Below the pieces are notes generated by a model that saw nothing but the letters and a program-made list of their open reading frames with translations, did not search any database and was not told the origin of the DNA. The translations under genes were made by a program, and so were the position numbers. Below, piece after piece: positions 992 to 64,000 of a DNA stretch of 64,000 nucleotides (the first letter of the stretch is position 1; each line of letters begins with the position of its first letter). This stretch comes from Thermodesulfobacteriota bacterium (lineage in GTDB: Bacteria > Desulfobacterota > WTBG01 > CAIYCZ01 > CAIRTM01): the NCBI GenBank assembly GCA_028282925.1, contig JANQGV010000012.1, positions 7,787 through 71,786 on the forward strand, read 5' to 3'.

Positions 992-999
992 CAAAACAG

Positions 1000-32625: not shown

Positions 32626-32689
32626 TCCTCAAAACTGTGTATTTATTCCGGAATACCACTTTGCCATGTCGGTACGCCGATAAACTATT

Positions 32690-32835: not shown

Positions 32836-32961
32836 TCAGCGCGCTTGAATACCTATTTTAATCACTTTAGCAAAATGGGGGGAAAAGTCAAGATGTATGG
32901 ATTTTTGCCAAAAAACATGCGTGCTGAAGAACAGCAGTGTGCGATTAAAAAGAATTTCCGG

Positions 32962-48026: not shown

Positions 48027-48053
48027 ACGGGTAGTCCTTATATGAGGGTGCCG

Positions 48054-49712: not shown

Positions 49713-49714
49713 CG

Positions 49715-50188
49715 ATGGCAAAAAAAAACACACTTACGGCTGGAGAGGCGCTACATACCCTGTTTCAGGAGGTTTTCAAATTGCAGGCCTCCTTGTCCGA
49801 CATAATAGACAGGGTCCATGAACATGTCGGGCTAACCACATCGAATTTGAGAATAATGGGAGTGCTGATAGAAAAAGGAGCAGCTTCAGTTCCGGACATT
49901 GCTGCACATTTGGGAGTTTCGCGTCAATTTGTTCAAACCGTTTGCAATGATCTATCGTCCCAGGGATTATTGGAATTCTTTGAAAATCCACGTCATAAAC
50001 GATCAAAGTTGGCAGATTTGACGACGGAAGGACGAGATGCATTTTTTACTGCAAGAAAAAAGGAAAATCAGCTCATTGAAAGGGCCTTACCTCACATTGC
50101 GTCTGATCAGGCGCATGCAGCATCTCAGTTGCTTCACCACATCAATGAAGAACTGAAAAAACGATCCGGGCCAGTGGCACTGCAGTGA
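49715..50188 (+). CDS. MarR-family transcriptional regulator
   Basis: 157 aa, winged HTH (LRIMGVLIEKGAASVPDIAAHLGVSRQFVQTVCNDLSSQGLLE). Confidence 0.75.
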   Translation: MAKKNTLTAGEALHTLFQEVFKLQASLSDIIDRVHEHVGLTTSNLRIMGVLIEKGAASVPDIAAHLGVSRQFVQTVCNDLSSQGLLEFFENPRHKRSKLADLTTEGRDAFFTARKKENQLIERALPHIASDQAHAASQLLHHINEELKKRSGPVALQ

Positions 50189-50260
50189 ATTGTATGGGAA
50201 GAAATATTTTGACAACGCTGACTTAAACACTGATACAGAGTATGGTGTCCGGTCCAGGGG

Positions 50261-52354
50261 TCAAAAAAGTATTCCCTTTATGCGCTGTATTTGATGTACT
50301 GTGCGCCAATGTTTTTGCAGACAGGAAGGCTTTTCGGCCATTTTAGCCATCACTCTGTTTCTGATCCTGTTCTGCAGTCCAGCCTTGATGCTTTTACCGA
50401 ACTTCTCCCCGGAAGGATTTTTAATGATTGTACTCAAGGGTAGATAGTCGGTCATGTTTTGAAACGTGCCAAGTTTATGTTGCTTTTCGAGGTCATCGCC
50501 AACCTGATCAAGGTCCAGATCATGTAACCGTTTGCGAGTCAAAAGTCCTTCTAAGGAAAGTCCATGATATGCATAGTATTCATCAAGCATTCCCGGTTTC
50601 TTGATATCAATCCCTTCCGCCCATGAATCAGGTTCAGGCCTTTTGGTGAAAGTATCCGGCTCTTTTTCCATTCCTCTCAGAATATTAATAGTGCGTTCAA
50701 TCTGATATCCTCGCTCTGCCGCTATCAAGAGGTCCTTGCCGTCGACATCAAATCCTGTCGCAGCCCTTACGGCTTCAGCAATATGTTCAGGAAGCCAGTT
50801 GCCATGGGACAGTAAGGTTTGTGAGAGATAAAAACAGGTGCCTATATTGTCATTGATAAGTTTATAGTTTTCATGCCACCAAACGGCCCTGCCCTTTGCT
50901 GTGTGAGAGGAGGTGTCAAACGTTTGAGGCGTGGCTCCGAAAAGCTCTTGAGCAATGATTTTATCATTTGATTGTGCCAGCAGGTGGGGTATGGCCTTCA
51001 AAAAATCGCCGCCCCTGGTGGAAACGGTAAAGGCTAACACATAGGGAGGGGCCGAATTACCAGGCCAGTGCATACCTTTCATGTGAAGTGCATAGCGGGA
51101 AGCATTGCCCCCGATTTTTTCAGCAGCCGACCTGGTGCCTTCTGCCAATATATTGCCTATGCCCTGGCGGCGGGCGACCTTTTCAGCCACTGTTTCCATC
51201 GCCTTCACAGTGCCCCAATTGAGTTCAAGTTCTTCCATGGTCTTCTTATCAAGACTCCCCTGTTTGCCGGCATCTATGGCCATACCGACGGTTCCTGCAA
51301 ATTCCTTGATGTCGATACCCAGAAGGTTTAGTTTATTGACCAGGTGAAGAATTGAGGGGACATCTCGAATGCCCAGGGTAAGGCCTAAGGACATGATATA
51401 GGCAACTTCATAGCCATATCCTTTTTCACCTTTGAATTGTCCTTCTTTGATGGACCAATGCTTGCCGCATTTTAACGGGCAACGGTAACATCCGTGATCC
51501 TTTGATTCCGTTGCTTCATAATAGGCGCCGATATCAAGGGAGGTGATATCCTCATAGGCGACTTTACAACGGCCGTTATTTGCGTAGATCAATCCTTGTG
51601 CGACCACTGGGTTGATAAACATTGCTGTGCCGTATTTTCTGAATAATTTTGGAAAGGCAAGGTCCTGGGTCCATTGTTTCACGCTATCAGATACTTCTTT
51701 CAGCAAGATCGGGTCTTTTATCATTATTTTATTACTACCGAGTACCACGACGGCCTTTAGCTTTTTGGAACCCATTACCGCCCCCATGCCTGTCTGAGAA
51801 AAGCTGTTGGCGTTATTGTTAGACATGATACATGCATATCTGACCAGATTTTCACCTGCCGGACCAATTGTGGCGACAGCAGCGTTTGGATATTGTGCTT
51901 TTAGTATCTTTTGTGTTGTCAGGGTATCTTTCCCCCACAAATTGCCGGCATCTTCAATGGTACAAACACCATCAGGCCCCAAGAGCAGATAACAGGGTTT
52001 ATCTGAAGCGCCCTTGATCATTATGTGATCATAGCCTGAGCGTTTGACCATAACTCCCAAAAAACCCCCGCCATTGGAGTCTCCAAAAATTCCAGTTAGT
52101 GGGCTTAGTGCGGTAAAGGTAGATCGAGAAGCGGTGGGGAAGGGGGTTCCGACAAGTGGGCCTGTCCCAAAAATGAGAGGGTTTCCCGGATCTAAGGCCT
52201 GCACAGACGGTGTAAGATTCTGGTACAGCAACCATGCATTATGCCCGGCTCCACCGGTAAATTTCAGCAACTCATTTTCTGGAAGTTCAAAGATTTTAGA
52301 TTTTCGTTGGCTCAAATCAATCTCCAGCATTTTCCCTCTATATCCAAATGCCAT
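50261..52354 (-). CDS. aor: Aldehyde:ferredoxin oxidoreductase (tungstopterin AOR family)
   Basis: N-terminal MAFGYRGKMLEIDLS...GGAGHNAWLLY typical of AOR; 697 aa; [4Fe-4S] Cys ligands (CYRCPLKC). RBS present. Confidence 0.85.
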   Translation of the reverse strand: MAFGYRGKMLEIDLSQRKSKIFELPENELLKFTGGAGHNAWLLYQNLTPSVQALDPGNPLIFGTGPLVGTPFPTASRSTFTALSPLTGIFGDSNGGGFLGVMVKRSGYDHIMIKGASDKPCYLLLGPDGVCTIEDAGNLWGKDTLTTQKILKAQYPNAAVATIGPAGENLVRYACIMSNNNANSFSQTGMGAVMGSKKLKAVVVLGSNKIMIKDPILLKEVSDSVKQWTQDLAFPKLFRKYGTAMFINPVVAQGLIYANNGRCKVAYEDITSLDIGAYYEATESKDHGCYRCPLKCGKHWSIKEGQFKGEKGYGYEVAYIMSLGLTLGIRDVPSILHLVNKLNLLGIDIKEFAGTVGMAIDAGKQGSLDKKTMEELELNWGTVKAMETVAEKVARRQGIGNILAEGTRSAAEKIGGNASRYALHMKGMHWPGNSAPPYVLAFTVSTRGGDFLKAIPHLLAQSNDKIIAQELFGATPQTFDTSSHTAKGRAVWWHENYKLINDNIGTCFYLSQTLLSHGNWLPEHIAEAVRAATGFDVDGKDLLIAAERGYQIERTINILRGMEKEPDTFTKRPEPDSWAEGIDIKKPGMLDEYYAYHGLSLEGLLTRKRLHDLDLDQVGDDLEKQHKLGTFQNMTDYLPLSTIIKNPSGEKFGKSIKAGLQNRIRNRVMAKMAEKPSCLQKHWRTVHQIQRIKGILF

Positions 52355-52423
52355 GATTTTGCTCCCTTTTTATTTTTTTTGCGGCCGATAAAACCAGGCT
52401 TTGTCGTTCATAGTTTGGATTAG

Positions 52424-52438
52424 GCAACCGACGTGCCA
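52424..52438 (-). promoter_or_regulatory. Sigma-54 (-24/-12) promoter driving aor
   Basis: The minus strand reads TGGCACGTCGGTTGC, which is TGGCAC-N5-TTGC. It lies ~70 nt upstream of the aor start, and a divergent sigma-54 activator gene is adjacent. Confidence 0.65.
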
Positions 52439-52613
52439 AAGCGCTTGATAAAAAATTGTCATTTAATATCAATTATTTATGGTCCGCCAAAAGAATTATA
52501 TGAAAAAGAGCAAATATTATGTGCCATAAAAAACAGTTCTGACTGTATAATATGATAGATATGCATTGCAAGTGCCAAATATGACAAAATTAACGTGCGT
52601 TTAGGAGGAAAGA

Positions 52614-54167
52614 ATGTTGGTAGATGAAAAAGTTTTTTTCCGAGAGGCCACCCTTAGAATTTCCAGCAGCCTGGAGATTGAAAAAGCGTTATGGCAATGC
52701 TTACTCTATATTCAACATTTTGTTCCTGCAGAAGAAGCCTATATGCACTACTATGACCCCGTCTCAGGCGCCTCAATCATATTTGTTGGGGCTGACAGCC
52801 AACAGGGTAAGCTCCTAAATCTCAGCGCTCCCTGGCCCAATGAGTTCCGTGCTCAGGCAGAGCGTGGCCAATTCCCCAAAGCCTTTATTGCAAACAGGGC
52901 TGATGAGCACCCTATGGCTCAGCCAATACTCAAGGCCTTGAAAAAAGGAAAATCATCAATAATGACGGTTCGCCTGACCCTTGAGGATGATTGGGTGGGT
53001 GGTGTGTCCTTTTGGGCAGGCAATCGGGAAAAATTTAATGCGGAACAGTTGGAACTTCTCTCTCTTCTAAGGCAGCCGTTGGCTATTGCCCTCTCAAACA
53101 GCCGCAGGTATCGAGAGCTTCTGGAACTTAAGAATTTGCTGGCAGACGACAACCGCTACCTTCAGAACGAACTTCGTCAAATAAGCGGCGGTGAAATTAT
53201 CGGTGCGGACTTTGGGTTAAGGAGGGTCATGGACCTGGTGCGCCAGGTTGCCCCGCTTGATAGTCCGGTGATTCTTCTGGGAGAGACAGGAACAGGCAAA
53301 GAGCTTTTTGCCAATGCAATTCATAACCTTTCCACCAGGAGTGCAGGTCCTTTTATCAAAGTCAATTGCGGAGCGATTCCGGATAGCCTCATGGACAGCG
53401 AGCTTTTCGGCCATGAAAAAGGTGCCTTTACCGGAGCCATTTCCCAAAAGCGCGGACGCTTTGAAAGAGCAGATGGTGGCACTATCTTTCTTGATGAAAT
53501 CGGAGAATTGTCCCCTGAAGCACAAGTCAGGCTATTGAGAGTGTTACAGGAAAAAGAAATTGAACGTGTGGGCGGTAACAAACCCTTACAGTTGGATATC
53601 AGGGTCATTGCTGCGACACATCGAAACCTTCAGACTATGCTTGAAAAGGGTGAGTTTCGGGAAGACCTTTTTTTCCGGCTACAGGTTTTTCCCATCGCCA
53701 TTCCACCGCTTAGAGAGAGGGTTGACGATATCCCAAACCTGGTGCAACATTTTATGCAAAAGAAAGCGCGTGAAATGAAATTGACGGCAATCCCTACTTT
53801 GGCACCTGCTGCAATAAATCTTTTAATGACCTATTTGTGGCCGGGCAATGTCCGAGAGCTTGAAAACGCGGTGGAACGGGCTTTAATCCTCAGCCGGGGA
53901 AATCCCCTTAGCTTTTCTGAGTTTCAGTCGTTTACAGATAAGTTCCACGATAGCAACAGGTTGCAACCCCTTGAAGCAAAGGAACCTTTGAATCTGGATT
54001 GTGTAATTGCACATCATATTCAAAGGGTTCTCAAAATGACCGGAGGGAGAGTAGAGGGCAAGGGTGGAACGGCGGAGCTGCTGGGGATAAAGGCCAGTAC
54101 TCTTAGGAATCGCATGCGAAAGCTGTCTATACCCTTTGGAAGGAAAGCTGATAGATCGAATACATAA
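52614..54167 (+). CDS. Sigma-54-dependent transcriptional activator (GAF-like sensor + AAA+ sigma-54 interaction domain + Fis-type HTH)
   Basis: Walker A GETGTGKELFA, GAFTGA motif (EKGAFTGA), Walker B IFLDEIGEL, and a C-terminal HTH. RBS AGGAGGAAAGA. Possible extended -10 promoter TGTATAAT at 52546-52553. Confidence 0.9.
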   Translation: MLVDEKVFFREATLRISSSLEIEKALWQCLLYIQHFVPAEEAYMHYYDPVSGASIIFVGADSQQGKLLNLSAPWPNEFRAQAERGQFPKAFIANRADEHPMAQPILKALKKGKSSIMTVRLTLEDDWVGGVSFWAGNREKFNAEQLELLSLLRQPLAIALSNSRRYRELLELKNLLADDNRYLQNELRQISGGEIIGADFGLRRVMDLVRQVAPLDSPVILLGETGTGKELFANAIHNLSTRSAGPFIKVNCGAIPDSLMDSELFGHEKGAFTGAISQKRGRFERADGGTIFLDEIGELSPEAQVRLLRVLQEKEIERVGGNKPLQLDIRVIAATHRNLQTMLEKGEFREDLFFRLQVFPIAIPPLRERVDDIPNLVQHFMQKKAREMKLTAIPTLAPAAINLLMTYLWPGNVRELENAVERALILSRGNPLSFSEFQSFTDKFHDSNRLQPLEAKEPLNLDCVIAHHIQRVLKMTGGRVEGKGGTAELLGIKASTLRNRMRKLSIPFGRKADRSNT

Positions 54168-54250
54168 GATCTCTTAAAATGATAAGATTCGTGGAGAAAG
54201 CGGTGGCGTTTTTTTGAAGGGCGGATTTTTAATTTATTTAATTATGAAAT

Positions 54251-54280
54251 AATGGTAGAGGCGGGGGGAGGCAAACACCC
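54251..54280. repeat. Degenerate copy of a tRNA/tmRNA 3'-end-like attachment-site repeat (direct repeat copy 1)
   Basis: AATGGTAGAGGCGGGGGGAGGCAAAC compared with AATGGTGGAGGCGGGGGGAGTCGAAC at 58132: about 24 of 27 positions identical, same orientation, 3.85 kb apart. Confidence 0.5.
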
Positions 54281-54533
54281 GTCCGAGAGTCCACCAGGGT
54301 AACATCTACATGCTTATCCCTGATTTGACGTTTCGCCTTTAAGTGTCTGCCAGTAGCAGGACCCTATTACAGACTATCGGGAAAAATGCGACAGATTGAT
54401 CCTCTTTTCTCTTCTTCCGTATGCCGACGGACTTATTGACATACACGCCAACCTCGGTTAAAATTTAATAACCGCAAGCAGCAGCGTATCATGTGTCAAT
54501 CTGTACGGCCACGACGGCCTCGAAAGTAAGAAC

Positions 54534-55202
54534 ATGGGTGTATCCAACTCTTCCGCTTCAAAAAAGAAATTTATTCACTTTTTGGCGATCCTTTTCACCG
54601 GAGGGGTAATCGGCTTGTTTGTCTGTGGCCGGTTTATGGACTTGTCGCCGGAAGCCTTCCATGCCTTCATTGGGTCTCTTGGGCTTCTCGGTCCGGTAAT
54701 CTATATCAGTCTCTTCATTATCCGGCCGTTTTTCCTTATCTCGTCAATCGCCCTCTTTATTGCCGGCGGCCTGGCATTCGGGCCGGTGTTGGGGCCTTCA
54801 TTTGCCGCTTTTGGTGCGGCTATCGGCGGTTCAATTGGTTTTTTCTTCGCCAGATTCATGGGGCATGAGTATATCTATGGTAAACTGAAAACCAAAAAGC
54901 ATTTCATCGAAAATCAAAACTTCTCTTTTTCAATTGTCCTGTTATTAAGCCTGCTGCCTCTTATGCCGGTAACCCTCATCAATATCGGGGCCGGGCTATC
55001 GGATATGAAGTACAGGCCCTATATTCTTGCCCATATGCTGGGCGTTACGCCACGGGCTTTCGCGTACGGCTTTTTCGGCAGCACGCTTTTTGCAACCGGA
55101 ACCCTGAAATTTAAAATCGCGCTGATCCTTATCCTGATTATGGTTCTCGTAACAGGGTACTATACGCGAAAATCAAAAAAACAAAGCCGGGAATCTGCTT
55201 GA
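54534..55202 (+). CDS. DedA/TVP38/TMEM64-family membrane protein
   Basis: 222 aa, 5-6 TM segments, with a glycine-rich re-entrant motif region (LFIAGGLAFGPVLG). Confidence 0.7.
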   Translation: MGVSNSSASKKKFIHFLAILFTGGVIGLFVCGRFMDLSPEAFHAFIGSLGLLGPVIYISLFIIRPFFLISSIALFIAGGLAFGPVLGPSFAAFGAAIGGSIGFFFARFMGHEYIYGKLKTKKHFIENQNFSFSIVLLLSLLPLMPVTLINIGAGLSDMKYRPYILAHMLGVTPRAFAYGFFGSTLFATGTLKFKIALILILIMVLVTGYYTRKSKKQSRESA

Positions 55203-55314
55203 ATGTGCGCCGGTTTCCGGGAGAGTTGAGAACCGTGCGTGACTGTTCACGCCTCGTACAGTCCTCCTGTATGTTATCCGGCTTCCCAATGACACCTTTG
55301 GCACTTCAACCATC

Positions 55315-56022
55315 ATGCATGCTCAATCCACAAAACAGTTGACAAAAGACGGTACAAAAACGCTGATTGCCCCGTTCCGGTGGACGGCTGCGATGGCGCT
55401 CTGTTTCTTTCTGGCTGCGGGTCGGCTGGATGTTCCCAGGGCCTGGCTGTTTTTCGGCATCTATCTTACCGGCGCAATTGCGGGCGCAGCGATCATGCGG
55501 CGCTATGCCCCGGATCTGGCAAACCGGCGGGCCTCGATCAAGGAGGGAACCAAGACCTGGGACAAGGTGTTTTTGGCTGTATACTTCCTGATCTCATTGT
55601 TTGTCGCCCCGATAGTTGCCGGTCTGGATGTGGGCAGATACCAGTGGTCGTATCTGGGGCCGTCATTCGCAATCATCGGTTTCGTCCTCTATGCCGCTTC
55701 GTTTGTGCTGGCATACTGGGCAATGGTGGTAAATGAACATTTTGAAGCAACCGTTCGAATTCAAACAGACCGGGGCCATAAGGTCATTACCACAGGGCCG
55801 TATCGATTTGTGAGGCATCCGGGCTACCTGGGTATGATCATCGGCGGGTTCGGGGTCTCGTTTCTTCTCGGCTCAGCCTACTCGCTCATTCCCGTTGCCG
55901 GAGCAACACTTGCCGTGGTGGTCCGGACGTATCTTGAAGACCGGCTGCTGTGCAACGAGCTGGAGGGATATGCCGACTATGCCCGGACAACCCGGTACCG
56001 GCTGATAATCGGTGTCTGGTGA
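55315..56022 (+). CDS. Membrane methyltransferase of the ICMT/PEMT family (distant paralogue of ORF 49218-49712)
   Basis: Multiple TM segments and the C-terminal motif GPYRFVRHPGYLGMIIGGFG...EDRLL...E. Confidence 0.7.
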   Translation: MHAQSTKQLTKDGTKTLIAPFRWTAAMALCFFLAAGRLDVPRAWLFFGIYLTGAIAGAAIMRRYAPDLANRRASIKEGTKTWDKVFLAVYFLISLFVAPIVAGLDVGRYQWSYLGPSFAIIGFVLYAASFVLAYWAMVVNEHFEATVRIQTDRGHKVITTGPYRFVRHPGYLGMIIGGFGVSFLLGSAYSLIPVAGATLAVVVRTYLEDRLLCNELEGYADYARTTRYRLIIGVW

Positions 56023-56170
56023 AAAAGAGTGTCAGGCCTTTTTGCCGTGACCGGCGGTGGGCAGGCGGTTTGAAACGTATTGAATCAGATTCGTATTTGT
56101 GTGGATACGTATCCCTCAAACTCAATTCCTGAGTCCTTTGATATATCTTTGCCGGACACAATTTTTCTCT

Positions 56171-57829
56171 TTACCGGTTGCACCCATATCCTTTGATAAT
56201 TTCTCCCCATTTTGCATCCACCTGTGCCAGGGCGTCAGGCGCCCCCTGTTCAAGCAGCGTGCGGTTCAGCTCCGGATACACATCCGGGCCGCCCTCTTCG
56301 GGCCATTGCCGGGTGGCGTCGATAACGATCTTGCTGGTCTTGCCGCGCACCTTCGAGCTTGGGTCCAGAGGTAAGCCCCGCGCCTCCTTGATAATGTGAC
56401 TGGCGGTGCCGGGCAGCCAGCGCGTGATAAGGGAATTATCCACCTGGGCCGAGTCCAGGATATCGATATCCTCGTCCACAACGATCACCACCTTGAAGAT
56501 CGGTACCATAGAGGCCAGCTTTTTGCCGGCTTCGAGGCCCTGGCCCGCGGCCGTTTTTTTTATCCGGACATATGTTAGGCCGGGAGCGTGGACCGGGGAA
56601 TGCAGCTCGATCAGCTGAGGAATGAACCGCTTAAATGCAGTGTTGAAAATCACTGCGGTGGGGCCTGTGACGAATCCCCGGGTCGCACCGGTAAACACAT
56701 TCAGGAGCCAGGGGTCTTGGCGGTGGGTCACCGTCGTGACGTTCATGAAAAAGTTCTCTTTCTTCTGCGGTCCCAGATAACCGCACATCTCGCCAAAAGG
56801 TCCCTCGGGAAGTCCGGGCTGGTCCAGCGGGATTTCACCCTTAATGACGAGCTCCGCGTGAGCAGGAACCAGAATATCGCTGGTTTCACAGCGCACGACT
56901 TCCAGCGCCTTGCCCCGCAGCCCGCCTGCTATGGCCAGCTCGTCGATGGGTCCCTTGCGCCTGCGATTGGCAACCTTTGAGCCGCTGACCACCCATACAT
57001 AGGGATCCTGGCCCAGCACAAGCGCGACTTTGGCGCTTTTTTCGCCCCGCTTTTTGGCCGCCATCAGATGTTTCCAGCCGGTCTGGTTCGGTTCGGGATT
57101 GATGCCGATGATACGGGGCCCCCGGAGCTGGCATCGATAGGTGCCGAAATTCATTCCCATCTTCGGGTCAGAGGTAAAAACCGAGGCCGAGTTGATGTAG
57201 CGCCCTCCATCGGAAGGGTTGCTCTGTATAAAGGCAAAGCGGGTGACATCGACCTCATTCCCCCGCAGCACGACCTGTTTACACAGGGCCTGTTCCTTTT
57301 GAACTTCAATAGGCTTGATCGGCGGATACTCGCCTTTCTTCAACCGCCCCTGAAGGTGAGCCATTGCTTTGCGATAGGTCCCGCGGGGGTCACCGGGAAT
57401 CGGCTCCACTCCGAAGAGGATAGCTTCGGTATCCAGGTGCCCCTGGTGATTAGCAACCAGCGGCCCCCGGACCCACTGTCCGTTGATTTTAACCTGTTCG
57501 GCCAAAATTGCCGGTGCTTCTTCATGGCCGTATTCATCAATAAGCCGGTACATCAGGGCGCTCATTTCATAGGCATCCTGATCCAGTTTTTCAAAGCGCA
57601 GCAAAAGGCCGCGTTCCTCAAGGGCCCTGACATAGTCACGAAAGGTGTCGAACGGCGCCGACAAGGTGGCCGTTCGCGATGTTGTGCCTGCACCTGATGC
57701 AGGGGAGGGGGATCGGGTCCCTAATACGCAGCCGGCGGTGACAGCGGCTACGCCGACAGCGCCGGTGGTCAGAAAGTTACGTCGGGATATGCTGCAACTG
57801 CTTTTTACGGAGTGCGTTTTTTCAGCCAT
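56171..57829 (-). CDS. UbiD-family (prFMN-dependent) decarboxylase with a twin-arginine (Tat) signal peptide. True start MAEKTH at 57829, with a GGAGG RBS
   Basis: Tat motif SRRNFLTTGAVGVAAVTAG. UbiD core with EGPFGEMCGYLG (compare the canonical EGPFGExTGYY) and ELAIAGGLRGKALEVV. Confidence 0.8.
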   Translation of the reverse strand: MAEKTHSVKSSCSISRRNFLTTGAVGVAAVTAGCVLGTRSPSPASGAGTTSRTATLSAPFDTFRDYVRALEERGLLLRFEKLDQDAYEMSALMYRLIDEYGHEEAPAILAEQVKINGQWVRGPLVANHQGHLDTEAILFGVEPIPGDPRGTYRKAMAHLQGRLKKGEYPPIKPIEVQKEQALCKQVVLRGNEVDVTRFAFIQSNPSDGGRYINSASVFTSDPKMGMNFGTYRCQLRGPRIIGINPEPNQTGWKHLMAAKKRGEKSAKVALVLGQDPYVWVVSGSKVANRRRKGPIDELAIAGGLRGKALEVVRCETSDILVPAHAELVIKGEIPLDQPGLPEGPFGEMCGYLGPQKKENFFMNVTTVTHRQDPWLLNVFTGATRGFVTGPTAVIFNTAFKRFIPQLIELHSPVHAPGLTYVRIKKTAAGQGLEAGKKLASMVPIFKVVIVVDEDIDILDSAQVDNSLITRWLPGTASHIIKEARGLPLDPSSKVRGKTSKIVIDATRQWPEEGGPDVYPELNRTLLEQGAPDALAQVDAKWGEIIKGYGCNR

Positions 57830-58074
57830 GGATAACCTCCATTGGGTGGAAAAAGAAAAGATTGTTAAATTAATCAATGTATAGTGAGATGTCTTTTTGA
57901 TGATTAATTTTAAGTGGAAAATATAGATAAAACACATTGATGTGTCAATAGAAGTGAACCTGCCCTTTGCAAGAACTAAAATCCGAATGATTTTTGCCTA
58001 ACAATATACTGGGACGAATAAGGGACATAATTATTTTCAGGAAGGATGGTTTTCTATTAAACATGGCGGTGGTG

Positions 58075-58138
58075 CACCATTCGACTCACGTTGTTCACTC
58101 AGGGTTTACCATGAGCGAGCGTAGCGAGTCGAATGGTG
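58075..58138. repeat. Long imperfect hairpin (13-bp arms, ~38-nt loop) abutting the att-like repeat
   Basis: CACCATTCGACTC at 58075-58087 is the reverse complement of GAGTCGAATGGTG at 58126-58138. The GAGTCGAA core recurs a third time at 58151. Confidence 0.45.
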
Positions 58139-58158
58139 GAGGCGGGGGGAGTCGAACA
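58136..58158 (-). repeat. Fragment of the 3' terminus of a tRNA/tmRNA (T-loop, T-stem 3' half, acceptor 3' half, ACCA), probably an attachment-site scar at the island boundary
   Basis: The reverse complement reads TTCGACT-CCCCC-CGCCTCC-A-CCA: a T-loop fitting TTCRANY, five Cs, a 7-nt acceptor half, discriminator A, then CCA. It has no matching 5' half (no GGGGG before the T-loop), so it is a 3' fragment and not a gene. The AT-rich DNA begins at 58161. Confidence 0.55.
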
Positions 58159-58324
58159 TGGCATCTATATATTTGTAATATAATAATTATATATAGAATT
58201 TAGTTTTCATGTACCCCCAGTTAAAGTTAATGCCCCCTGGAAATGTAAAGAGTATCCTAGTAGCAAGTATACACTCTGGGTCGCATGGAATTAAAGCTTT
58301 CCGTGGAGCGATCGCTACCAGGGG

Positions 58325-59398
58325 CTATAATATTTCGTACTTCCAATAATCTTTAATCGGGATTCCGTAATCGTTGGCATTTTTTAAGTCATAGGTAACT
58401 TCAAAAGTGCAACACATGCATTTTATCTGCCAGCTGTATTTATATGCCCGCTCATATCTACCATCAGGGGTCTCTCCTTCCACCTCAATATTATCATAAA
58501 CGACCAAGGCCGTTACTCCGCACACAGGACATTTATCTATTTGTTCAAAATGATTTTTTTGGGCTTGTGCTGCAGCTTCTGACTGTTTGATTATCTCGTT
58601 ATTTAAGAACTTTCCATGCATTTTTTCATCTGTAATTGGATTTTCGTATGCTGCTCTACCTAGTGCTTTTGCATAAGCGAATTTACCGACATCATAATCA
58701 TTTTTTTCATTATATAGAAAATCCAAAGGATCAAAATTTATATTCAACGGTTTGTATTTCCATAATATGTTTCGCCCCCTATATCTATCTAGTGCAATAA
58801 CTTTTCTCAAAAAGGGTAAAAAATATTTGCAGATGAATTTGTCTAATGAATCATATCTCAGAATAAAGGATCCTCTATGCCAAATTCTGTTTCTTAGGGT
58901 ATTTAACTTTTCCAACATATTTTTTTTATCAATGATGAATTGATATGATAAATGATTTTCAATTTCTTCATTTTTTATAAGATCAGCTAACCTTTTTAAT
59001 GACTCCGAAAATTCGATTGATCTGATGCCTGATTCTTCTTCGGGTCTTAACTGTTCCCCGGTGAGAAGTTTTTTTAAGACTATTGTTTGTGTTGAGGCAG
59101 TGTCTGCCAACAATGGATGTACGGTCCTGAGAATATCTTTTATTATAAGTTCTGTAAAATGATGAAGGTGTAATATGGTTTCAGCTGCATATTCAAAATA
59201 CTCAAAATGTGTGTTGAAGTCCTTTTTTTCGTTATCTTCATCATTCATGAAAACACTTAGGCTATACTTCATTGCTTTATACGTAGAAAAGTAGGCATGA
59301 AGTCCAAGCCTAAGCGAATAAAATGCAAACCCAGCGATGTTTTTTTCTCTTTTGTCTAATAGTATACCGTCTTTACAAATTCTGGAAAGTTCTAACAT
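58325..59398 (-). CDS. Hypothetical protein with a HEPN-like Rx4H motif and a C-terminal Cys4 zinc-ribbon; candidate Abi/defence RNase
   Basis: LRNRIWHRG contains the R-N-x3-H motif typical of the HEPN family. C-terminal CPVCG...(26 aa)...CMCC. AT-rich codon usage like the rest of the island. Confidence 0.5.
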   Translation of the reverse strand: MLELSRICKDGILLDKREKNIAGFAFYSLRLGLHAYFSTYKAMKYSLSVFMNDEDNEKKDFNTHFEYFEYAAETILHLHHFTELIIKDILRTVHPLLADTASTQTIVLKKLLTGEQLRPEEESGIRSIEFSESLKRLADLIKNEEIENHLSYQFIIDKKNMLEKLNTLRNRIWHRGSFILRYDSLDKFICKYFLPFLRKVIALDRYRGRNILWKYKPLNINFDPLDFLYNEKNDYDVGKFAYAKALGRAAYENPITDEKMHGKFLNNEIIKQSEAAAQAQKNHFEQIDKCPVCGVTALVVYDNIEVEGETPDGRYERAYKYSWQIKCMCCTFEVTYDLKNANDYGIPIKDYWKYEIL

Positions 59399-59603
59399 TT
59401 TTTTTGATCCCTATAAGCTATTTAATTTGTCCGTATCTCAATCTAGGTGTCGCACTCATCGGACTCTTCACCGTTGATACACCCTTCATGAGATGCGTAT
59501 GATGTATTGAGAACACCGTCTTCATGGTACATCTCTGCTTTCCTTTCTCTAATCATGAGGCGTGTTCCGAATCGTGACAGTGGGTTAATGTTAGGTTTTA
59601 GCT

Positions 59604-62531
59604 TCAGCCCTTAAGTAATTCTCGAAATTCAAGATAACCACGACTGCCCAGATAATGAATAAAATCCTCAGCCGCTGAAGCTGCTGGTGATCGTAGAACC
59701 TTTATCAAGATAGACTTTGCATGGTCACGCCAGCCATATACGCCCCAGCCTTCCCGATCACCTCTAGCCATCAGTTCAAGGCAGGTAACAGTCTCGGTTG
59801 GCATTGAAGGAGCAAGTTCTTCTAGCTTTTCCAACACTTCGTCTTCCGGCTCAATCTTCCCGGCGATCCTTATTGCTTCAATCAATTGTGCCAGTGCCCA
59901 GCAATCATCATAAACACCTGAAGCAAACCACCATCCGAATTCTCGCATTTCATATTTATACTTGTCATGTTCCGCACTCTCTTTGGCAGCTGCAAGTCTC
60001 TCTTCCCAAAATAGTTTTAAACGATCTAGGATTTCAGGCAATACTGTTTGCTTATAATCATACAAGCTTCGACCTACGTATTCTACAGCATCTCCCCGTA
60101 GTTCAGGGTCTGCCTTTTCCCAAAATTGATCAAATATAACCCTAGTTTCTTCACCGCTAAGTTTGCCTCGCCAATAAAGTGTCATTACATGCTCAGCGAG
60201 ATGCCTGTCCGCATCATATATGCTGTGACCGCTACCCTGTATATCAATCTGCTTAACAGCATACTTGTACTGGTCTGTAAGTAATTCAAAGACATTATCA
60301 TACACGGAACAGTAAACAACGTAAGTATTCCATGCTGCATAAAAATATTTTTCAGAAAGGTTATCCAATGGAAAGATGTTGAATATCTGCTCAGCAGACC
60401 AACTAGAATCAAGCAGAACCAGCCAGGGGAACCATTGACCATAGACGGCCCTGATTGCAATGGAGGGATCTTTTGATACATCAAGATGGCGCTCAAGCAT
60501 TGTTCGCACTTCTTGCATTTCATCAAAGCCACGGCTGATAAGCTCTGGTGAATCAGATTGCTTATCAAAATATCGTCGGAGCCAAAGAGCATAACGCACA
60601 ACAGCATGCATTGCTTCACCGCGGGTCGTGTTGATAGAAAGGGTAACCGGATCCAAGTTTTCATCACCATACTGTTCTTCATCCTCCGGTGCCGGATCAG
60701 GGTCGTCTGTCAGCGACTCAAGTATTTGCCATACGATTTCACGATCTTCTATAGCAAAGCCTCCAACCTCTTCATCGAACCCAGCTGACAAAAGTCCTGC
60801 AATGGCCTTCCGAGTCCAGCCCCAGTCAGGGTCCATATCAAAATCCTTGTCTGGCCTGCCAGGTATCTCGTGTGGCTGATCCATTATCCAGCGGCAAAGA
60901 TCAATTACAGATTTCCATTGAAAATATTTACCTAATTTTAAAGCCGATTGAAGACCGGATAACAATGACCGCACATATGTTGGATCAAGTTCTTTAAAAG
61001 AATGGGCGTTTTTTGCATATGTTTCTGGGTTTTGAGTTGCAATCGCGGAAAGTTCTCTGCCCAAACCTTCAGGAGAAGATTTAAAAGGACCCTCAGGCGG
61101 TGCCCATGTTCTGAGGAATTCGACAAGTTCTTCAATCGACATTTTTTTTAAATTTTCAGCGTTTACAGGGCTTGTCGGCCCTACCCAACTGCATGTGATT
61201 CTTCCCTCAGGTTTTGGTTCTCCATATTCTGATACCAATTTATCATAATACGTTTTCCAGCCTTCAGGCAGACTCTCTTTAATCCAATTGAGCCGAAAAA
61301 GTTGCCAGGTCTTTGTATATCGTGCGTTGTCATCATCGGTAACCTTTTCGCCGGTTCTCCGTTCTCTACTTTGTTTATATGAAGCCACTTCCGGTCCTTG
61401 TTCAATCCAACTCAATATTTTTTGTTTCTGCGCAATAGTTAAATTATCAAAATGTTCTCTGATTAACAGCGAATATTCATGTTCTAAGCATCGGTCATTG
61501 AACAGTTCCATAGATGTAAGATAGTTTGCAGCTGTCTCCGGAACAACATTAGAGTACAATCGTAGTATGTGGAGGGATATGCGTTTGAAAATTTTCCATG
61601 GATAGCGTTCAAGTGTTTGAATTAGTACAGGAACTTTGGATGTATCCTGCTGTGCAATCTGCTCAGCCCCAGCACGTACTGCTTTAACCAAGGCATGGTT
61701 GATTCTGCGGCCACGGTTCTGTTCATTCTCCTCAACAGACGGGCGCCATATATAGGAATAATCTTCAAAACCGTTATCCTTTGTATTTCTGCCTGACAAG
61801 TCAATGTAGGATTGCAGCAGATCACAGAACAGCTCTAACGCTTCAAAATCACCTGCTCGAACAAGCTCGGGCATAATCTTTTCTAGAATTTTATTATATT
61901 GGTAATTATCAAACCTGGCTTTTGGCTCATAAGGATAACTATGTTTTTGTTCTTTCTCTGAATCGTTTTTTGAATGTGAATCCGGCAGGATTTCAAACAT
62001 CACCCGGGCCAAGTCCAAAGCAGACGCTGTTTGTCCACCCTTTGCCAAGTTTACTATAAAGTGAGCAAGTTTTTCTGTAAGTGACATTTGATATTTTGTG
62101 CCCGCCCAAGTTTTAGCTTTATCCAGTAATCTGACAGAAATTTCAGGCGGCATCTTAATGGCCACATCCGCAAGGTCTTCATACACCCGGACATTATTCG
62201 TATCCGGTATCTGCAAAACAATTGCAAGAACCTTTTCCGGTTCGATTGCAGCCATCCGAGCCAGATAGCGTGATTCTGGCCAAGGGGGTAGGCTGATTGT
62301 TCCTTTAACTTCATCAATCTCAGCTTTTGGTGGTTTTGTAAAAAAACCCTCTGTTTTAAGGGGGTCTATCCACTCAGGAGCATCAAGTCGATCAAAAAAG
62401 TACTTGCAAACACCTTCATCTTCTATAAGTTTTTTTATTCTCTCTAAGCTATCTGCAATTGGATGTTGTATGAGCAATCTATCTATTTCGCTTATTCTGT
62501 TAAAAAATTTATCTTGGCTCAATTCACCCAC
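59604..62531 (-). CDS. Large (975 aa) all-helical protein, translationally coupled downstream of the SIR2 gene; candidate sensor/partner subunit (DSR2 C-terminal-domain analogue?)
   Basis: No Walker A/B or other catalytic motif. Trp-rich and predicted alpha-helical throughout. Its start codon lies 7 nt after the SIR2 stop. Confidence 0.6.
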   Translation of the reverse strand: MGELSQDKFFNRISEIDRLLIQHPIADSLERIKKLIEDEGVCKYFFDRLDAPEWIDPLKTEGFFTKPPKAEIDEVKGTISLPPWPESRYLARMAAIEPEKVLAIVLQIPDTNNVRVYEDLADVAIKMPPEISVRLLDKAKTWAGTKYQMSLTEKLAHFIVNLAKGGQTASALDLARVMFEILPDSHSKNDSEKEQKHSYPYEPKARFDNYQYNKILEKIMPELVRAGDFEALELFCDLLQSYIDLSGRNTKDNGFEDYSYIWRPSVEENEQNRGRRINHALVKAVRAGAEQIAQQDTSKVPVLIQTLERYPWKIFKRISLHILRLYSNVVPETAANYLTSMELFNDRCLEHEYSLLIREHFDNLTIAQKQKILSWIEQGPEVASYKQSRERRTGEKVTDDDNARYTKTWQLFRLNWIKESLPEGWKTYYDKLVSEYGEPKPEGRITCSWVGPTSPVNAENLKKMSIEELVEFLRTWAPPEGPFKSSPEGLGRELSAIATQNPETYAKNAHSFKELDPTYVRSLLSGLQSALKLGKYFQWKSVIDLCRWIMDQPHEIPGRPDKDFDMDPDWGWTRKAIAGLLSAGFDEEVGGFAIEDREIVWQILESLTDDPDPAPEDEEQYGDENLDPVTLSINTTRGEAMHAVVRYALWLRRYFDKQSDSPELISRGFDEMQEVRTMLERHLDVSKDPSIAIRAVYGQWFPWLVLLDSSWSAEQIFNIFPLDNLSEKYFYAAWNTYVVYCSVYDNVFELLTDQYKYAVKQIDIQGSGHSIYDADRHLAEHVMTLYWRGKLSGEETRVIFDQFWEKADPELRGDAVEYVGRSLYDYKQTVLPEILDRLKLFWEERLAAAKESAEHDKYKYEMREFGWWFASGVYDDCWALAQLIEAIRIAGKIEPEDEVLEKLEELAPSMPTETVTCLELMARGDREGWGVYGWRDHAKSILIKVLRSPAASAAEDFIHYLGSRGYLEFRELLKG

Positions 62532-62537
62532 CTCCCT

Positions 62538-63434
62538 TTATATGTCAAAGCCACTTTTAAAAGGTGCTGGCCTTTTTTTCATATCACTATGTTCAACACA
62601 TCCGCGTAGTATTTCTTCAAGCCCCCTAAAATCATCACCTTTTGGATCAAATATGATTGGTTCAATTTCCAAAGCGCTAAAAAGGGCTATCATTTCATCA
62701 TATTCTTCTTTTTGTTCCCCAGTCTTTTGATTTAATGCCGGCCACAAAATGTGTTTAGTAAATATTTTCGATATGCTTGTTTTTGGTTTGATCTCCAATT
62801 GAATTGTATTCGCATATGTGATTAACTCACTAAGATATCTTTCTGTTGGATTAAACCCAATGAATAACACTTTTTCATAAACAAAAAGGTTCAGTAAAAA
62901 CCCTGGCAATAAGCTTTCTTTGCCATACGCACCTTTAAAAGCCCTTTGACCAAAAATCAATTTGTGGTGTTCGTAATTATTCTTTTCAGAGTCATAGCAT
63001 CCATGAATATAATACAAAGCCTGTTCCAACCCTTTCGACATAGATATATCTGGATAAGCATATCTTGCATTGATATCTTCATGCCTGAAGTGATTCTCAA
63101 CCCAAGGATCAAAATTTGTTGTGATAAAAGCTTTAAAAGGGAGTCGTGGTATATAATTTAAAGCTGGTCTGGAAGTTGCAATGTCTTTTGGGAAGAATTC
63201 TTGAAATGTTTTTTCATATTCTGATGGATTAGCATCAAAACATGCATCAATAACCTGTGGTAGGTTCTCAGAGTCAAAATCAACCCTACAACGGTCTGCA
63301 ATTTTCTTAACGCTTTCTTTCCATAGCTCCCCCGGAGGAATAGATAATCCTGCACCAAAAAAGACAATACAGTCCCCACCTAAAACAACTTTTTTTATTT
63401 TGTCAATCGCATCTGTTTCTGCAGTGCGTTTCAT
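62538..63434 (-). CDS. SIR2-family (defence-type SIR2_2-like) NADase-domain protein
   Basis: Rossmann motif VFFGAGLSIPPGELW, ITTNFDPW (compare TTNYD of ThsA/DSR2 SIR2 domains), catalytic-His context YYIHGCYD, and VLFIGFNP (compare FIGYS). 298 aa. Confidence 0.75.
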   Translation of the reverse strand: MKRTAETDAIDKIKKVVLGGDCIVFFGAGLSIPPGELWKESVKKIADRCRVDFDSENLPQVIDACFDANPSEYEKTFQEFFPKDIATSRPALNYIPRLPFKAFITTNFDPWVENHFRHEDINARYAYPDISMSKGLEQALYYIHGCYDSEKNNYEHHKLIFGQRAFKGAYGKESLLPGFLLNLFVYEKVLFIGFNPTERYLSELITYANTIQLEIKPKTSISKIFTKHILWPALNQKTGEQKEEYDEMIALFSALEIEPIIFDPKGDDFRGLEEILRGCVEHSDMKKRPAPFKSGFDI

Positions 63435-63607
63435 TGCACTTCACCTCGGGGAAATTTCATCAGAGACGGACAGTCGTTGGACTACAAAATTGATTCATTT
63501 CAGGTTTATGTGTTTGCTTATTTCCCGCAACAAAATAGTTATCAAATTAATACATATGATGCTTTTTATTTTTCTGAGCGAAAAAAATAAGGATGTCCTT
63601 ATGTATT

Positions 63608-64000
63608 TCAAGAGCTCGATCCGGGGTGCGCGAATGTTGTTTCGCGAGTTATTTTGTTTTCTTTTTCCAGATGAACCAAAACCCAAGGTAATATTTTGTT
63701 CAAAGCCTTTTCATTAGGGTAAGCAGTAATTAGAGAATTTTCAATTTCAGTTTTTCCTGCTTCTGAATTTTCAATCAATAGCTCTGAGGTTTCGGGCGGG
63801 ATGTATTCATAAATATTAAATTTTTGCTTAATAAAAAACAGATTTTCATTGATTACGGGAATTGCTCTTTGCTGCTGTTCGGCGTTTAATGCGTTTAAAA
63901 GTGTTTCTGTCAGATATACTCCATGTGGTAACCCGACCATGGCATCATGTGCATATTGGATCCCCCTGCCACCACATAGACTTACGCTTGTATGTTGTGA
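63608..64000 (-). CDS. Hypothetical protein, 5' end beyond the window (the frame stays open through 64000)
   Basis: Minus-strand reading frame with no stop between 63940 and 64000 (…STTYKRKSMWWQGIQYAHDAMVGLPHGVYL…). Upstream of, and in the same orientation as, the SIR2 operon. Confidence 0.4.
   Translation of the reverse strand, partial: SQHTSVSLCGGRGIQYAHDAMVGLPHGVYLTETLLNALNAEQQQRAIPVINENLFFIKQKFNIYEYIPPETSELLIENSEAGKTEIENSLITAYPNEKALNKILPWVLVHLEKENKITRETTFAHPGSSS

What the first reader, a model, noticed from the sequence alone, without database searches (positions are those of the whole stretch)
58161..64000. Abrupt compositional island beginning at a tRNA/tmRNA 3'-end fragment
GC content falls from ~55-60% to ~35-40% exactly at 58161. 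Immediately outside the boundary sits a 23-nt fragment on the minus strand whose reverse complement is TTCGACTCCCCCCGCCTCCACCA. That is a T-loop, T-stem 3' half, acceptor 3' half, discriminator and CCA, but with no 5' partner, which is the signature of the displaced att copy left when an element integrates into the 3' end of a tRNA or tmRNA gene. The orientation predicts that the intact tRNA/tmRNA, and probably an integrase, lie beyond 64000.
Basis: seen in the sequence. Interest (0 to 1): 0.65.

Follow-up and report, generated by a model that had tools for sequence, protein, structure and literature searches.

The report
Decayed genomic island at tmRNA gene
The AT-rich stretch is the window-side end of a ~10 kb foreign island that integrated into the 3' end of the tmRNA gene (ssrA) of a Desulfobacterota-like bacterium; it carries an anti-phage sirtuin system, has lost its integrase, and is an ordinary, well-understood kind of feature.

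Summary
TTCGACTCCCCCCGCCTCCACCA lies at 58134-58156 (-). It is the terminal 23 nt of tmRNA: 96 of 120 genome hits end an ARAGORN-called tmRNA, none a tRNA. It has no 5' partner. DNA beyond it is a compositional outlier (40.8% GC against 52%; tetranucleotide r 0.42-0.48 against 0.83-0.94). The drop, however, starts at 57830, not 58161.

A Logan contig identical to the window extends it by 4.1 kb. It ends in a second, directly repeated copy of the tmRNA 3' end plus 24 nt of flank, 9,976 bp away. The island is therefore about 10 kb.

- **Cargo:** a two-gene Dsr1-like SIR2 defence system and unknown genes; no phage genes.
- **Integrase:** only a 46-codon C-terminal remnant of a tyrosine integrase, convergent with ssrA, as the intact gene is in a related MAG.
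- **Older events:** a second short integrase-end remnant sits inside the island. A third integrase-end remnant (58022-58048) and a degenerate 134-nt tmRNA fragment (54253-54386) lie on the other side of the fragment.

This points to a decayed tandem array of ssrA-integrating elements. The intact ssrA could not be seen, because every retrievable contig stops at the repeat. This is a new member of a known kind; interest is low to moderate.

The parts
58134..58156 (-). Fragment B: the displaced 23-nt 3' end of tmRNA (T-loop, 3' T-stem half, 3' acceptor half, discriminator, CCA). It is the attR core of the island.
   Evidence: Exact match, none expected by chance. It is identical to the 3' end of 96 ARAGORN-called tmRNA genes and no tRNA. 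It is preceded by GATGCCATG instead of GGGGG. A direct repeat lies 9,976 bp away at the start of L001.
58060..58133 (-). Leader or hairpin module that starts at the first base after CCA (TTCGACTCGCTACGCTCGCTCATGG...GAGTCGAATGGTG). It is a deletion derivative of the leader that precedes the GIY-YIG gene at copy A.
   Evidence: 31-nt inverted repeat 58075-58105 / 58108-58138. RNA fold -38.6 kcal/mol, z -5.8, with a 15-bp stem that uses the tmRNA CACCA. Collinear with module A: 41/43 identical, then 32/36. The same flank follows tmRNA genes or fragments in 39 JGI contigs.
58022..58048 (+). Remnant of the 3' end of a tyrosine integrase gene (..GHNYFQEG), convergent with the tmRNA fragment. It is what is left of the integrase of the older neighbouring element.
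   Evidence: 26/27 nt identical to the end of the 46-codon integrase remnant next to copy A. A third copy is at L001 2466-2501.
58157..64000 (.). The part of the island that lies in the window. With the Logan extension it runs to 68109, about 9.95 kb in all.
   Evidence: GC 40.8% against 51.9%. Tetranucleotide r 0.42-0.48 against 0.83-0.94. L001 is 100% identical over 61254-64000. The source NCBI contig carries the L001-encoded 265-aa, YdjM and 141-aa proteins.
58325..59398 (-). 357-aa cargo protein of unknown function, 33% GC.
   Evidence: No Pfam or NCBIfam family. Weak PADLOC PDC-S64 hit, E 0.0013.
59604..62531 (-). Partner protein of about 972 aa, homologous to the non-SIR2 part of Dsr1. 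The likely start is TTG at 62522, behind an AGGGAGG ribosome-binding site.
   Evidence: PADLOC Dsr1 PDLC04166, E 4e-57, model positions 295-1119 of 1227. NCBIfam Dsr1 scores 57 bits, far below the 1400-bit cut-off. Junction sequence. 2,603 representative homologs at E<=1e-30, mostly stand-alone proteins of about 950-990 aa.
62538..63434 (-). 298-aa SIR2-family effector protein, the first gene of the two-gene Dsr1-like pair.
   Evidence: Pfam SIR2_2, E 8e-12. PADLOC ThsA, LmuA and Dsr1 SIR2 regions.
63608..64000 (-). 3' part of a 265-aa gene of unknown function. The whole gene spans 63608-64405 in extended coordinates.
   Evidence: L001 gene 3724-4521. Only phrog_23933, of unknown function, E 2e-7.
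54253..54386 (-). Remnant C: a degenerate fragment of about 134 nt from the tmRNA 3' end (..GGACGGGTGTTTGCCTCCCCCCGCCTCTACCA). It is probably the original host 3' end, displaced by an earlier integration.
   Evidence: 3-mismatch hit to the 23-mer. Rfam tmRNA model positions 141-374, E 0.007. BLAST identity 73.7% over 137 nt to the L156 tmRNA 3' part and 75.9% over 112 nt to the near-identical L132 tmRNA; the 134-nt extent comes from the local alignment to L156.
54534..57829 (.). Segment between remnant C and fragment B. It holds a VTT/DedA-like gene (54534-55202 +), an ICMT-like methyltransferase (55315-56022 +) and a Tat-signal UbiD-family decarboxylase (56171-57829 -). It may be cargo of an older, compositionally ameliorated element.
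   Evidence: Pfam. The UbiD gene alone (56171-57902) is 86% identical in nucleotides to a Deltaproteobacteria MAG, with no shared flanks and no tmRNA there. The segment is flanked by tmRNA fragments and an integrase-end remnant. Its composition is host-like, r 0.85-0.88.

Best explanation

Inferred mechanism: a tyrosine integrase recombined the element's attP with ssrA, crossing over at the T-loop. attP carried a copy of the tmRNA 3' end. The element's copy now completes the gene (attL, beyond the window at about 68110-68131). The former 3' end was pushed to the far side of the island as the 23-nt fragment at 58134-58156 (attR).

This happened more than once, with related elements. The fragment is followed by the leader and integrase-end module of an earlier element, and a much older, degenerate tmRNA fragment lies at 54253-54386.

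Since then all integrase genes have been deleted down to their last 8-46 codons, so the array is probably fixed in the chromosome. The island's recognisable cargo is a two-gene Dsr1-like SIR2 anti-phage system.

Shown here: the fragment, the direct repeat, the composition, the integrase remnants and the cargo homologies. Inferred: the order of events, the crossover point, and that copy A belongs to an intact ssrA.
For: 1. The 23-mer is the tmRNA 3' end and lacks a 5' partner.
2. A direct repeat of at least 19 nt of the tmRNA end plus 24 nt of flank (41/43 identical) lies 9,976 bp away in the predicted direction. Two Logan assemblies break at exactly the first unique 31-mer there.
3. The NCBI source contig carries the L001-encoded proteins, so the window does continue as L001.
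4. The interval is a strong compositional outlier.
5. Next to copy A, and convergent with it, lies VSFEVIGKMFGHSDIRTTQKYAQVTIDAMRKARERAKRGQNYFQEG*. It matches Pfam Phage_integrase positions 147-169 of 172 (E 0.003). It is 58% identical to the C-terminus of an intact 406-aa integrase that sits 75 nt downstream of, and convergent with, an intact tmRNA gene in a Thermodesulfobacteriota MAG.
6. That MAG also has a displaced 23-nt fragment with the same boundary on another contig. Three to five of 120 genome hits are such fragments.
7. The modules at copies A and B are collinear: tmRNA end, leader, then integrase 3' end at 26/27 identity.
8. There is a degenerate older fragment.
9. No phage structural genes were found. 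The cargo is defence-like.
10. The signature is the one used by Islander. Tandem ssrA islands bounded by 20-bp repeats with T-loop insertion are documented in Dehalococcoides (PMC4383910, PMC3146451).
Against: - The intact ssrA was not seen. Copy A is visible only from ACTCCCC to CCA, so it could be another displaced fragment with more islands beyond it.
- No intact integrase lies between the repeats.
- No island-free relative with the same flanks was found, so there is no insertion polymorphism.
- The identity between the two copies runs 24 nt past the CCA into a leader that also follows tmRNA genes in genomes with no nearby integrase. The flank therefore need not be element DNA.
- The segment 54276-58133 has host-like composition, so calling it an older island rests only on its flanking remnants and on the isolated homology of the UbiD gene.
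Confidence: 0.75

Rival explanations
1. The repeat was not made by an integrase. A small GIY-YIG cassette with a structured leader inserts, or copies itself by homing-like gene conversion, at the base after the tmRNA CCA. It carried or duplicated the tmRNA 3' end, so the two copies mark cassette events rather than island ends.
For: Both copies are followed by the same leader from the first base after CCA. The same leader, often with the GIY-YIG gene, follows tmRNA genes or fragments in 39 JGI contigs of several lineages. Some of these have housekeeping genes and no integrase downstream. Six of 104 unselected tmRNA genes have such a gene just downstream.
Against: A cassette inserting after the CCA does not explain why copy B starts exactly at the T-loop with unrelated DNA upstream. 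It also does not explain the integrase remnants beside both copies, or the 10 kb of foreign-composition DNA between them. A homolog of the GIY-YIG gene with a similar leader sits in a context without tmRNA. Copy B has no GIY-YIG gene.
Confidence: 0.1
2. The junction is a metagenome assembly chimera. The tmRNA 3' end plus conserved leader (about 50 nt) is shared by several organisms in the sample, and it joined a GC-rich host contig to an AT-rich contig from another genome.
For: The source is a MAG-type contig. The repeat breaks k=31 assemblies. The leader is conserved across lineages.
Against: Even in that case the fragment, with island DNA upstream of its T-loop, remains a displaced att copy in whichever genome holds the island. 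The integrase-end motif occurs on both sides of the junction at 26/27 identity. Host-side and island-side contigs both occur in runs SRR20820739 and SRR20820740. The two copies differ at 2 positions, which a long-k assembler can resolve.
Confidence: 0.05
3. The island is a prophage or an active integrative element that still carries its integrase, further along the contig.
For: Copy A might be a fragment, with a further element carrying an intact integrase between it and ssrA. One Logan contig (L180) ends in the integrase remnant with a variant reading YAHV, which hints at a related copy in the sample.
Against: There are no phage structural or replication families in the 10 kb, and no integrase ORF between the repeats.
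Confidence: 0.07
4. The 23-mer is a chance or convergent tRNA-like motif, for example part of a repeat family.
For: The leader contains T-loop-like TTCGACTC motifs.
Against: There were 0 matches in 100 shuffles. It is exactly the tmRNA 3' end of more than 96 genomes, and it is directly repeated at the other end of the outlier region.
Confidence: 0.01

Closest known systems
tRNA/tmRNA-gene genomic islands as defined by Islander (Hudson, Lau & Williams 2015, PMC4383910; Williams 2002 and 2003, cited there)
   Same: A 3' fragment of the target gene, in the same orientation, marks the far end of a foreign segment. The near end carries a regenerated 3' end. The crossover is in the T-loop/T-stem ('J') region. 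The tmRNA gene is the most enriched target. The integrase is of the tyrosine recombinase family and lies next to attL.
   Different: No intact integrase is present (only 46-, about 10- and 8-codon remnants), so it would fail Islander's integrase filter. The identity block runs 24 nt past the CCA. The intact tDNA was not seen here.
Dehalococcoides ssrA-specific genomic islands (McMurdie et al. 2011, PMC3146451)
   Same: Tandem islands lie downstream of ssrA, bounded by short direct repeats of the ssrA 3' end. Insertion is in the T-loop. GC is low. Some members lack integration genes and are thought to be fixed.
   Different: Those elements use a serine recombinase (DsiB, CcrB-like) that overlaps attL. 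Here the remnants belong to a tyrosine recombinase. The cargo here is defence genes, not reductive dehalogenases.
ssrA plus convergent integrase locus of an uncultured Thermodesulfobacteriota MAG (CAZUMW01; loci L108 and L096)
   Same: The tmRNA has the same 23-nt 3' end. A 406-aa tyrosine integrase lies 75 nt downstream and convergent, with a C-terminus 58% identical to the remnant. A displaced fragment starts at the same T-loop base.
   Different: The integrase there is intact. There is no GIY-YIG leader after the CCA. The cargo was not compared.
Dsr1 (defence-associated sirtuin 1; PADLOC and NCBIfam NF041818)
   Same: A SIR2 NADase-type domain plus a large partner region, matched by the PADLOC Dsr1 model over positions 123-207 and 295-1119.
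   Different: It is encoded as two genes: 298 aa, then TAA, a ribosome-binding site and TTG, then about 972 aa. It scores far below the NCBIfam equivalog cut-off (57 against 1400 bits). The closest homologs of the partner are stand-alone proteins of about 960 aa or carry other N-terminal domains such as HTH.

Membership tests
tDNA-integrated genomic island (Islander criteria) | A 3' fragment of the tDNA, in the same orientation as the gene and downstream of it | tested here: met
   Fragment at 58134-58156 (-). A second copy at 68110-68128 (-) lies upstream in the tmRNA sense.
tDNA-integrated genomic island (Islander criteria) | An intact, regenerated tRNA/tmRNA gene at the other end | tested here: inconclusive
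   Only the last 19 nt are visible. The Logan contigs stop at the repeat, and the NCBI contig was not retrievable. ARAGORN finds no gene in the window or in L001.
tDNA-integrated genomic island (Islander criteria) | A tyrosine integrase gene inside the island | tested here: not met
   Only a 46-codon C-terminal remnant (Pfam Phage_integrase positions 147-169 of 172, E 0.003) and a shorter one lie within the island. There is no integrase ORF.
tDNA-integrated genomic island (Islander criteria) | Crossover at a canonical sublocation (anticodon loop, T-loop, or T/acceptor junction) | tested here: met
   Identity starts at the first base of the T-loop, TTCGACT. L096 and other fragments have the same boundary.
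Horizontally acquired island (general) | Composition deviates from the host, and presence or absence varies among relatives | tested here: inconclusive
   The composition criterion is met. Polymorphism could not be tested, because no syntenic relative was found.
Prophage | Phage structural, packaging or replication genes | tested here: not met
   PHROGs gives only unknown-function, hydrolase or endonuclease hits.
Dehalococcoides-type ssrA-GI | A serine recombinase (DsiB) integration module at attL | tested here: not met
   The remnant is of the tyrosine-recombinase type.
Dsr1 defence system | A single polypeptide of about 1,200 aa with an N-terminal SIR2 domain, reaching the NCBIfam equivalog score | tested here: not met
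   There are two ORFs separated by TAA plus a ribosome-binding site. NF041818 scores 57 and 20 bits against a cut-off of 1400. The PADLOC Dsr1 HMM does match (E 4e-57).
Dsr1 defence system | Anti-phage activity through NAD+ depletion | not testable with these tools
   This needs an experiment.

The most novel reading that the evidence does not exclude
The small GIY-YIG gene with its structured leader, which begins at the very first base after the tmRNA CCA at both repeat copies and in dozens of unrelated metagenome contigs, is a self-propagating (homing-like) cassette. It targets tmRNA 3' ends, including displaced att fragments. Its hairpin, which pairs with the tmRNA CACCA, affects tmRNA 3' processing or marks the target.
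Probability: 0.15. Interest if true: 0.5.

Novelty: new member of a known kind. Interest (0 to 1): 0.25.

Why it matters
The finding matters mainly as a clean worked example. A 23-nt tDNA fragment read by eye correctly located the edge of a genomic island, and even predicted where its other end lies.

For the organism, a Desulfobacterota-like MAG, it shows that ssrA is a recurrent landing site. The site has accumulated and then immobilised foreign DNA, including a two-gene SIR2 (Dsr1-like) defence system. Integrase-based island finders would miss this array, because every integrase has decayed.

It does not open a new question by itself. The tmRNA-adjacent GIY-YIG cassette seen in passing may deserve a separate look.

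Tried and rejected
1. I tried to fetch the sequence beyond 64000.
   - The exact-protein look-up for SIR2 gave only a 6.9-kb Logan contig.
   - The sigma-54 activator is on a 95,212-nt NCBI contig, but only Logan contigs were returned.
   - The exact UbiD product is not on record.
The source genome was not among the 120 loci.
3. The metagenome scan with CCA plus flank found 39 contigs, none of them the source.
4. I looked for island-free relatives through homologs of UbiD (86% identical) and of the sigma-54 activator (66-74% identical). There was no conserved synteny and no tmRNA nearby.
5. I first read the SIR2/partner pair as a Dsr1 gene broken by an in-frame stop. I rejected this after seeing the AGGGAGG ribosome-binding site and TTG start, and that most homologs are stand-alone proteins of about 960 aa.
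6. I first read the flank after the CCA as unique host DNA or a terminator. I rejected this because the same leader follows many tmRNA genes.
7. Williams 2002 and 2003 are not held in the library. No paper links GIY-YIG cassettes to tmRNA genes in bacteria.
Full report
**Observation**

The minus strand at 58156-58134 reads TTCGACTCCCCCCGCCTCCACCA. With up to three mismatches the pattern occurs twice in the window and never in 100 dinucleotide-preserving shuffles. In 96 of them the 23-mer is the 3' end of an ARAGORN-called tmRNA, and in none the end of a tRNA. In 98 of 104 loci it is preceded by the T-stem half GGGGG.

In the window it is preceded by ...ATATAGATGCCATG. ARAGORN finds no tRNA or tmRNA gene anywhere in the 64 kb, and Rfam finds only four cobalamin riboswitches at gathering score. 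The source is tmRNA, not tRNA.

**Composition**

From 58157 onward the DNA is 40.8% GC, against 51.9% for 1-52613. No 10-kb window in 1-54000 falls below 47.8%. Tetranucleotide usage correlates with the rest of the window at only 0.42-0.48, against 0.83-0.94 elsewhere.

The step is not exactly at 58161. The 304-nt intergenic region upstream of the UbiD gene (57830-58133) is already 36.8% GC. The 55-60% quoted for the left side holds only for 55.3-57.8 kb.

**The other end of the island**

The SIR2 protein at 62538-63434 is encoded, with exactly the same sequence, on Logan contig L001 (run SRR20820740, 6,875 bp). This contig is 100% identical to window 61254-64000 and runs 4,128 bp further. I use 'extended coordinates' for the window plus this extension; L001 position x corresponds to 68129-x.

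The window's own source is an NCBI contig of 95,212 nt. It also carries the 265-aa, YdjM and 141-aa proteins that L001 encodes beyond the window, so the extension is legitimate at least to 67339.

L001 begins ACTCCCCCCGCCTCCACCATTCGACTCGCTGTGCTCGCTCATGG. This is the tmRNA 3' end plus the 24 nt that follow it in the window copy, 41 of 43 identical. Its first 31-mer ends at the first base that differs from the window copy. That is where a k=31 assembly must break at a repeat. A contig from a second run stops at the same base.

I could not see beyond it. Whether copy A is the end of an intact ssrA therefore remains an inference.

**What lies between the repeats**

The genes, in order from fragment B to copy A, are as follows.

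| Extended coordinates | Strand | Product |
|---|---|---|
| 58325-59398 | - | 357-aa protein, unknown |
| 59604-62531 | - | ~972-aa partner protein |
| 62538-63434 | - | 298-aa SIR2 protein |
| 63608-64405 | - | 265-aa protein, unknown |
| 64424-65453 | - | three small ORFs; two are 81% identical paralogs |
| 65797-66525 | + | YdjM-family membrane hydrolase |
| 66914-67339 | + | 141-aa membrane protein |
| 67622-67921 | - | 99-aa GIY-YIG protein |

Nothing resembles phage structural or replication genes, and there is no integrase ORF.

The SIR2 protein and its partner together cover the PADLOC Dsr1 model, at positions 123-207 and 295-1119 of 1227 (E 4e-57). They fall far below the NCBIfam equivalog cut-off. 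The two ORFs are in the same frame, separated by TAA. At first I took this for a nonsense mutation. However, the stop is followed by AGGGAGG and, 8 nt later, a TTG start. In addition, most of the closest 150 of 2,603 strong homologs of the partner are stand-alone proteins of about 940-990 aa, and the longer ones examined carry unrelated N-terminal domains. It is therefore most likely a genuine two-gene Dsr1-like system.

**Integrase remnants**

At 67380-67517, on the plus strand and so convergent with the tmRNA, an open frame reads VSFEVIGKMFGHSDIRTTQKYAQVTIDAMRKARERAKRGQNYFQEG*, with stops upstream. Two results identify it.

- It matches the last 23 positions of Pfam Phage_integrase, which include the catalytic-tyrosine region (E 0.003, below gathering score because the stretch is so short).
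- It is 58% identical to the C-terminus of an intact 406-aa tyrosine integrase in locus L108.

In L108 the integrase gene ends 75 nt downstream of, and convergent with, an intact tmRNA gene that has the same 23-nt end. L108 belongs to an uncultured Thermodesulfobacteriota MAG. Another contig of the same MAG (L096) carries a displaced fragment that starts at the same T-loop base.

The last codons and the 3' flank of the remnant recur twice:

- at L001 2421-2501, 91-92% identical over 83 nt, reading ..EGQNYFQEG*;
- in the window at 58022-58048, 26 of 27 nt identical, reading GHNYFQEG.

**A tandem, decayed array**

Read in the tmRNA sense, copies A and B head collinear modules.

| Module part | Copy A against copy B |
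|---|---|
| tmRNA 3' end plus first leader segment | 41/43 identical |
| second leader segment | 32/36 identical |
| integrase 3' end | 26/27 identical |

Copy B lacks about 96 nt of leader, the GIY-YIG ORF and the integrase 3' UTR. So the DNA on the 'host' side of the fragment is itself the left end of an earlier, related element.

A further 3.9 kb away, at 54253-54386, lies the second hit...GGACGGGTGTTTGCCTCCCCCCGCCTCTACCA. Over about 134 nt it aligns to the 3' part of tmRNAs with tag ADDYNYALAA (local alignment to L156). BLAST identity is 73.7% over 137 nt to the L156 tmRNA and 75.9% over 112 nt to the near-identical L132 tmRNA. It matches Rfam tmRNA model positions 141-374 (E 0.007), and it has mutations in the T-arm and the acceptor.

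The simplest history has four steps.

1. A first element integrated and displaced the original 3' end, which is now remnant C.
2. A related element later integrated into the regenerated gene. It displaced the 23 nt supplied by the first element (fragment B) and left that element's leader and integrase directly behind the fragment.
3. The internal integrase-end copy at 65.6 kb suggests a third event or a rearrangement.
4. Deletions then removed the integrases.

The segment between C and B holds a VTT/DedA-like gene, an ICMT-like methyltransferase and a Tat-signal UbiD-family decarboxylase. Its composition is host-like. However, the UbiD gene alone (56171-57902) is 86% identical in nucleotides to a gene in a Deltaproteobacteria MAG, where none of the flanks match and no tmRNA is near. 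Its status as old cargo is plausible, not shown.

**The flank after the CCA**

The 24-50 nt after the CCA are not private to this genome. A metagenome scan for CGCCTCCACCA+TTCGACTCGCT found 39 contigs. Twenty-three carry tmRNA genes called by ARAGORN, with several different tag peptides, and others carry displaced fragments. In all of them the CCA is followed by TTCGACTCGCTnnGCTCGCTCATGG..., then GAGTCGAATGGTG and GTCGAAGGGC motifs, and often a GIY-YIG gene of about 95 aa.

In the window, the leader forms a 15-bp stem that includes the tmRNA CACCA (-38.6 kcal/mol, z -5.8). Some of the metagenome loci have smpB, gap or panBC and no integrase downstream. Six of 104 unselected tmRNA genes have a GIY-YIG gene just downstream. 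A 53%-identical homolog with a similar leader sits in a site without tmRNA.

So the cassette may be independent of the islands. This weakens the argument that identity past the CCA proves relatedness of two elements, and it is the basis of the first rival explanation. It cannot, however, explain three things: the T-loop boundary of fragment B, the integrase remnants, or the foreign 10 kb.

**Comparison with known systems**

This is the signature on which Islander is built: a tDNA, its displaced fragment, and the island between them. The tmRNA gene is the most enriched target, crossovers occur in the T-loop/T-stem region, and tandem arrays are recognised (PMC4383910).

The closest described analogue of the array is the set of tandem ssrA islands of Dehalococcoides. 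Those are bounded by 20-bp repeats, with insertion in the T-loop, and some members lack integration genes and are considered fixed (PMC3146451). They use a serine recombinase, whereas the remnants here are of the tyrosine type.

By Islander's own criteria this island fails the integrase test, and the intact-tDNA test is open here.

**Verdict**

It is a new member of a well-known kind. Interest is low to moderate.

Noticed in passing
window 58060-58133; L001 20-507; loci L122-L160: A small GIY-YIG gene (about 95 aa) has a structured leader (TTCGACTCGCTnnGCTCGCTCATGG ... GAGTCGAATGGTG ... GTCGAAGGGC). The leader starts at the first base after the CCA of tmRNA genes or displaced tmRNA fragments in 39 metagenome contigs of several lineages. 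Some of these have no integrase nearby. Six of 104 unselected tmRNA genes have such a gene just downstream. I found no paper describing this.
   Followed up: partly
window 54253-54386 (-): A degenerate fragment of about 134 nt from the tmRNA 3' end, with a mutated T-arm and CTCTACCA at its end, lies between the sigma-54 activator gene and a VTT/DedA-like gene.
   Followed up: yes
window 56171-57902: A UbiD-family decarboxylase carries a twin-arginine (Tat) signal peptide. The gene and 73 nt upstream are 86% identical in nucleotides to a Deltaproteobacteria MAG (GCA_013139225.1). Homology stops sharply at the gene's ends, and the flanks there are different, including an IS91-type Zn-finger ORF.
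   Followed up: partly
window 59604-63434: The SIR2 gene and its ~972-aa partner are in the same frame, separated by TAA, then AGGGAGG, then 8 nt, then TTG. The partner belongs to a large family (2,603 representatives at E<=1e-30). Most members are stand-alone proteins of about 960 aa; some carry HTH or unknown N-terminal domains instead of SIR2.
   Followed up: partly
window 986-1175, 10800-11044, 26582-26791, 32675-32863: Four cobalamin riboswitches within 64 kb, scoring 85-109 bits.
   Followed up: no
window ~48000-55000: This is a second, milder compositional anomaly: 44-47% GC, with tetranucleotide r down to 0.67. It covers the HAD, PEMT, MarR, aldehyde:ferredoxin oxidoreductase and sigma-54 activator genes next to the old tmRNA remnant.
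   Followed up: no
L001 2729-2920 and 3450-3641 (extended 65209-65400 and 64488-64679): A 192-nt direct repeat, 81% identical, encodes two paralogous small proteins (..KIAKLQAxVKGxEDWKPLGQLLKELNP..). They match no known family.
   Followed up: no
L108 5404-7055 and L096 2226-2248 (Thermodesulfobacteriota MAG CAZUMW01): An intact example of the same arrangement. One contig has a tmRNA gene followed 75 nt later by a convergent 406-aa tyrosine integrase with an N-terminal zinc-finger-like motif. Another contig of the same MAG has a displaced 23-nt fragment with the same T-loop boundary.
   Followed up: partly
window 58164-58197: A perfect 9-bp inverted repeat, TCTATATAT/ATATATAGA with 16 nt between the arms, lies 8 nt inside the island end. 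It could be a recombinase or accessory-protein site, or merely AT-rich DNA.
   Followed up: no
L180 end (extended ~67450): The Logan contig from run SRR20820739 ends inside the integrase remnant with a G-to-C variant that changes YAQV to the canonical YAHV. This hints at a related, perhaps intact, integrase copy in that sample.
   Followed up: no
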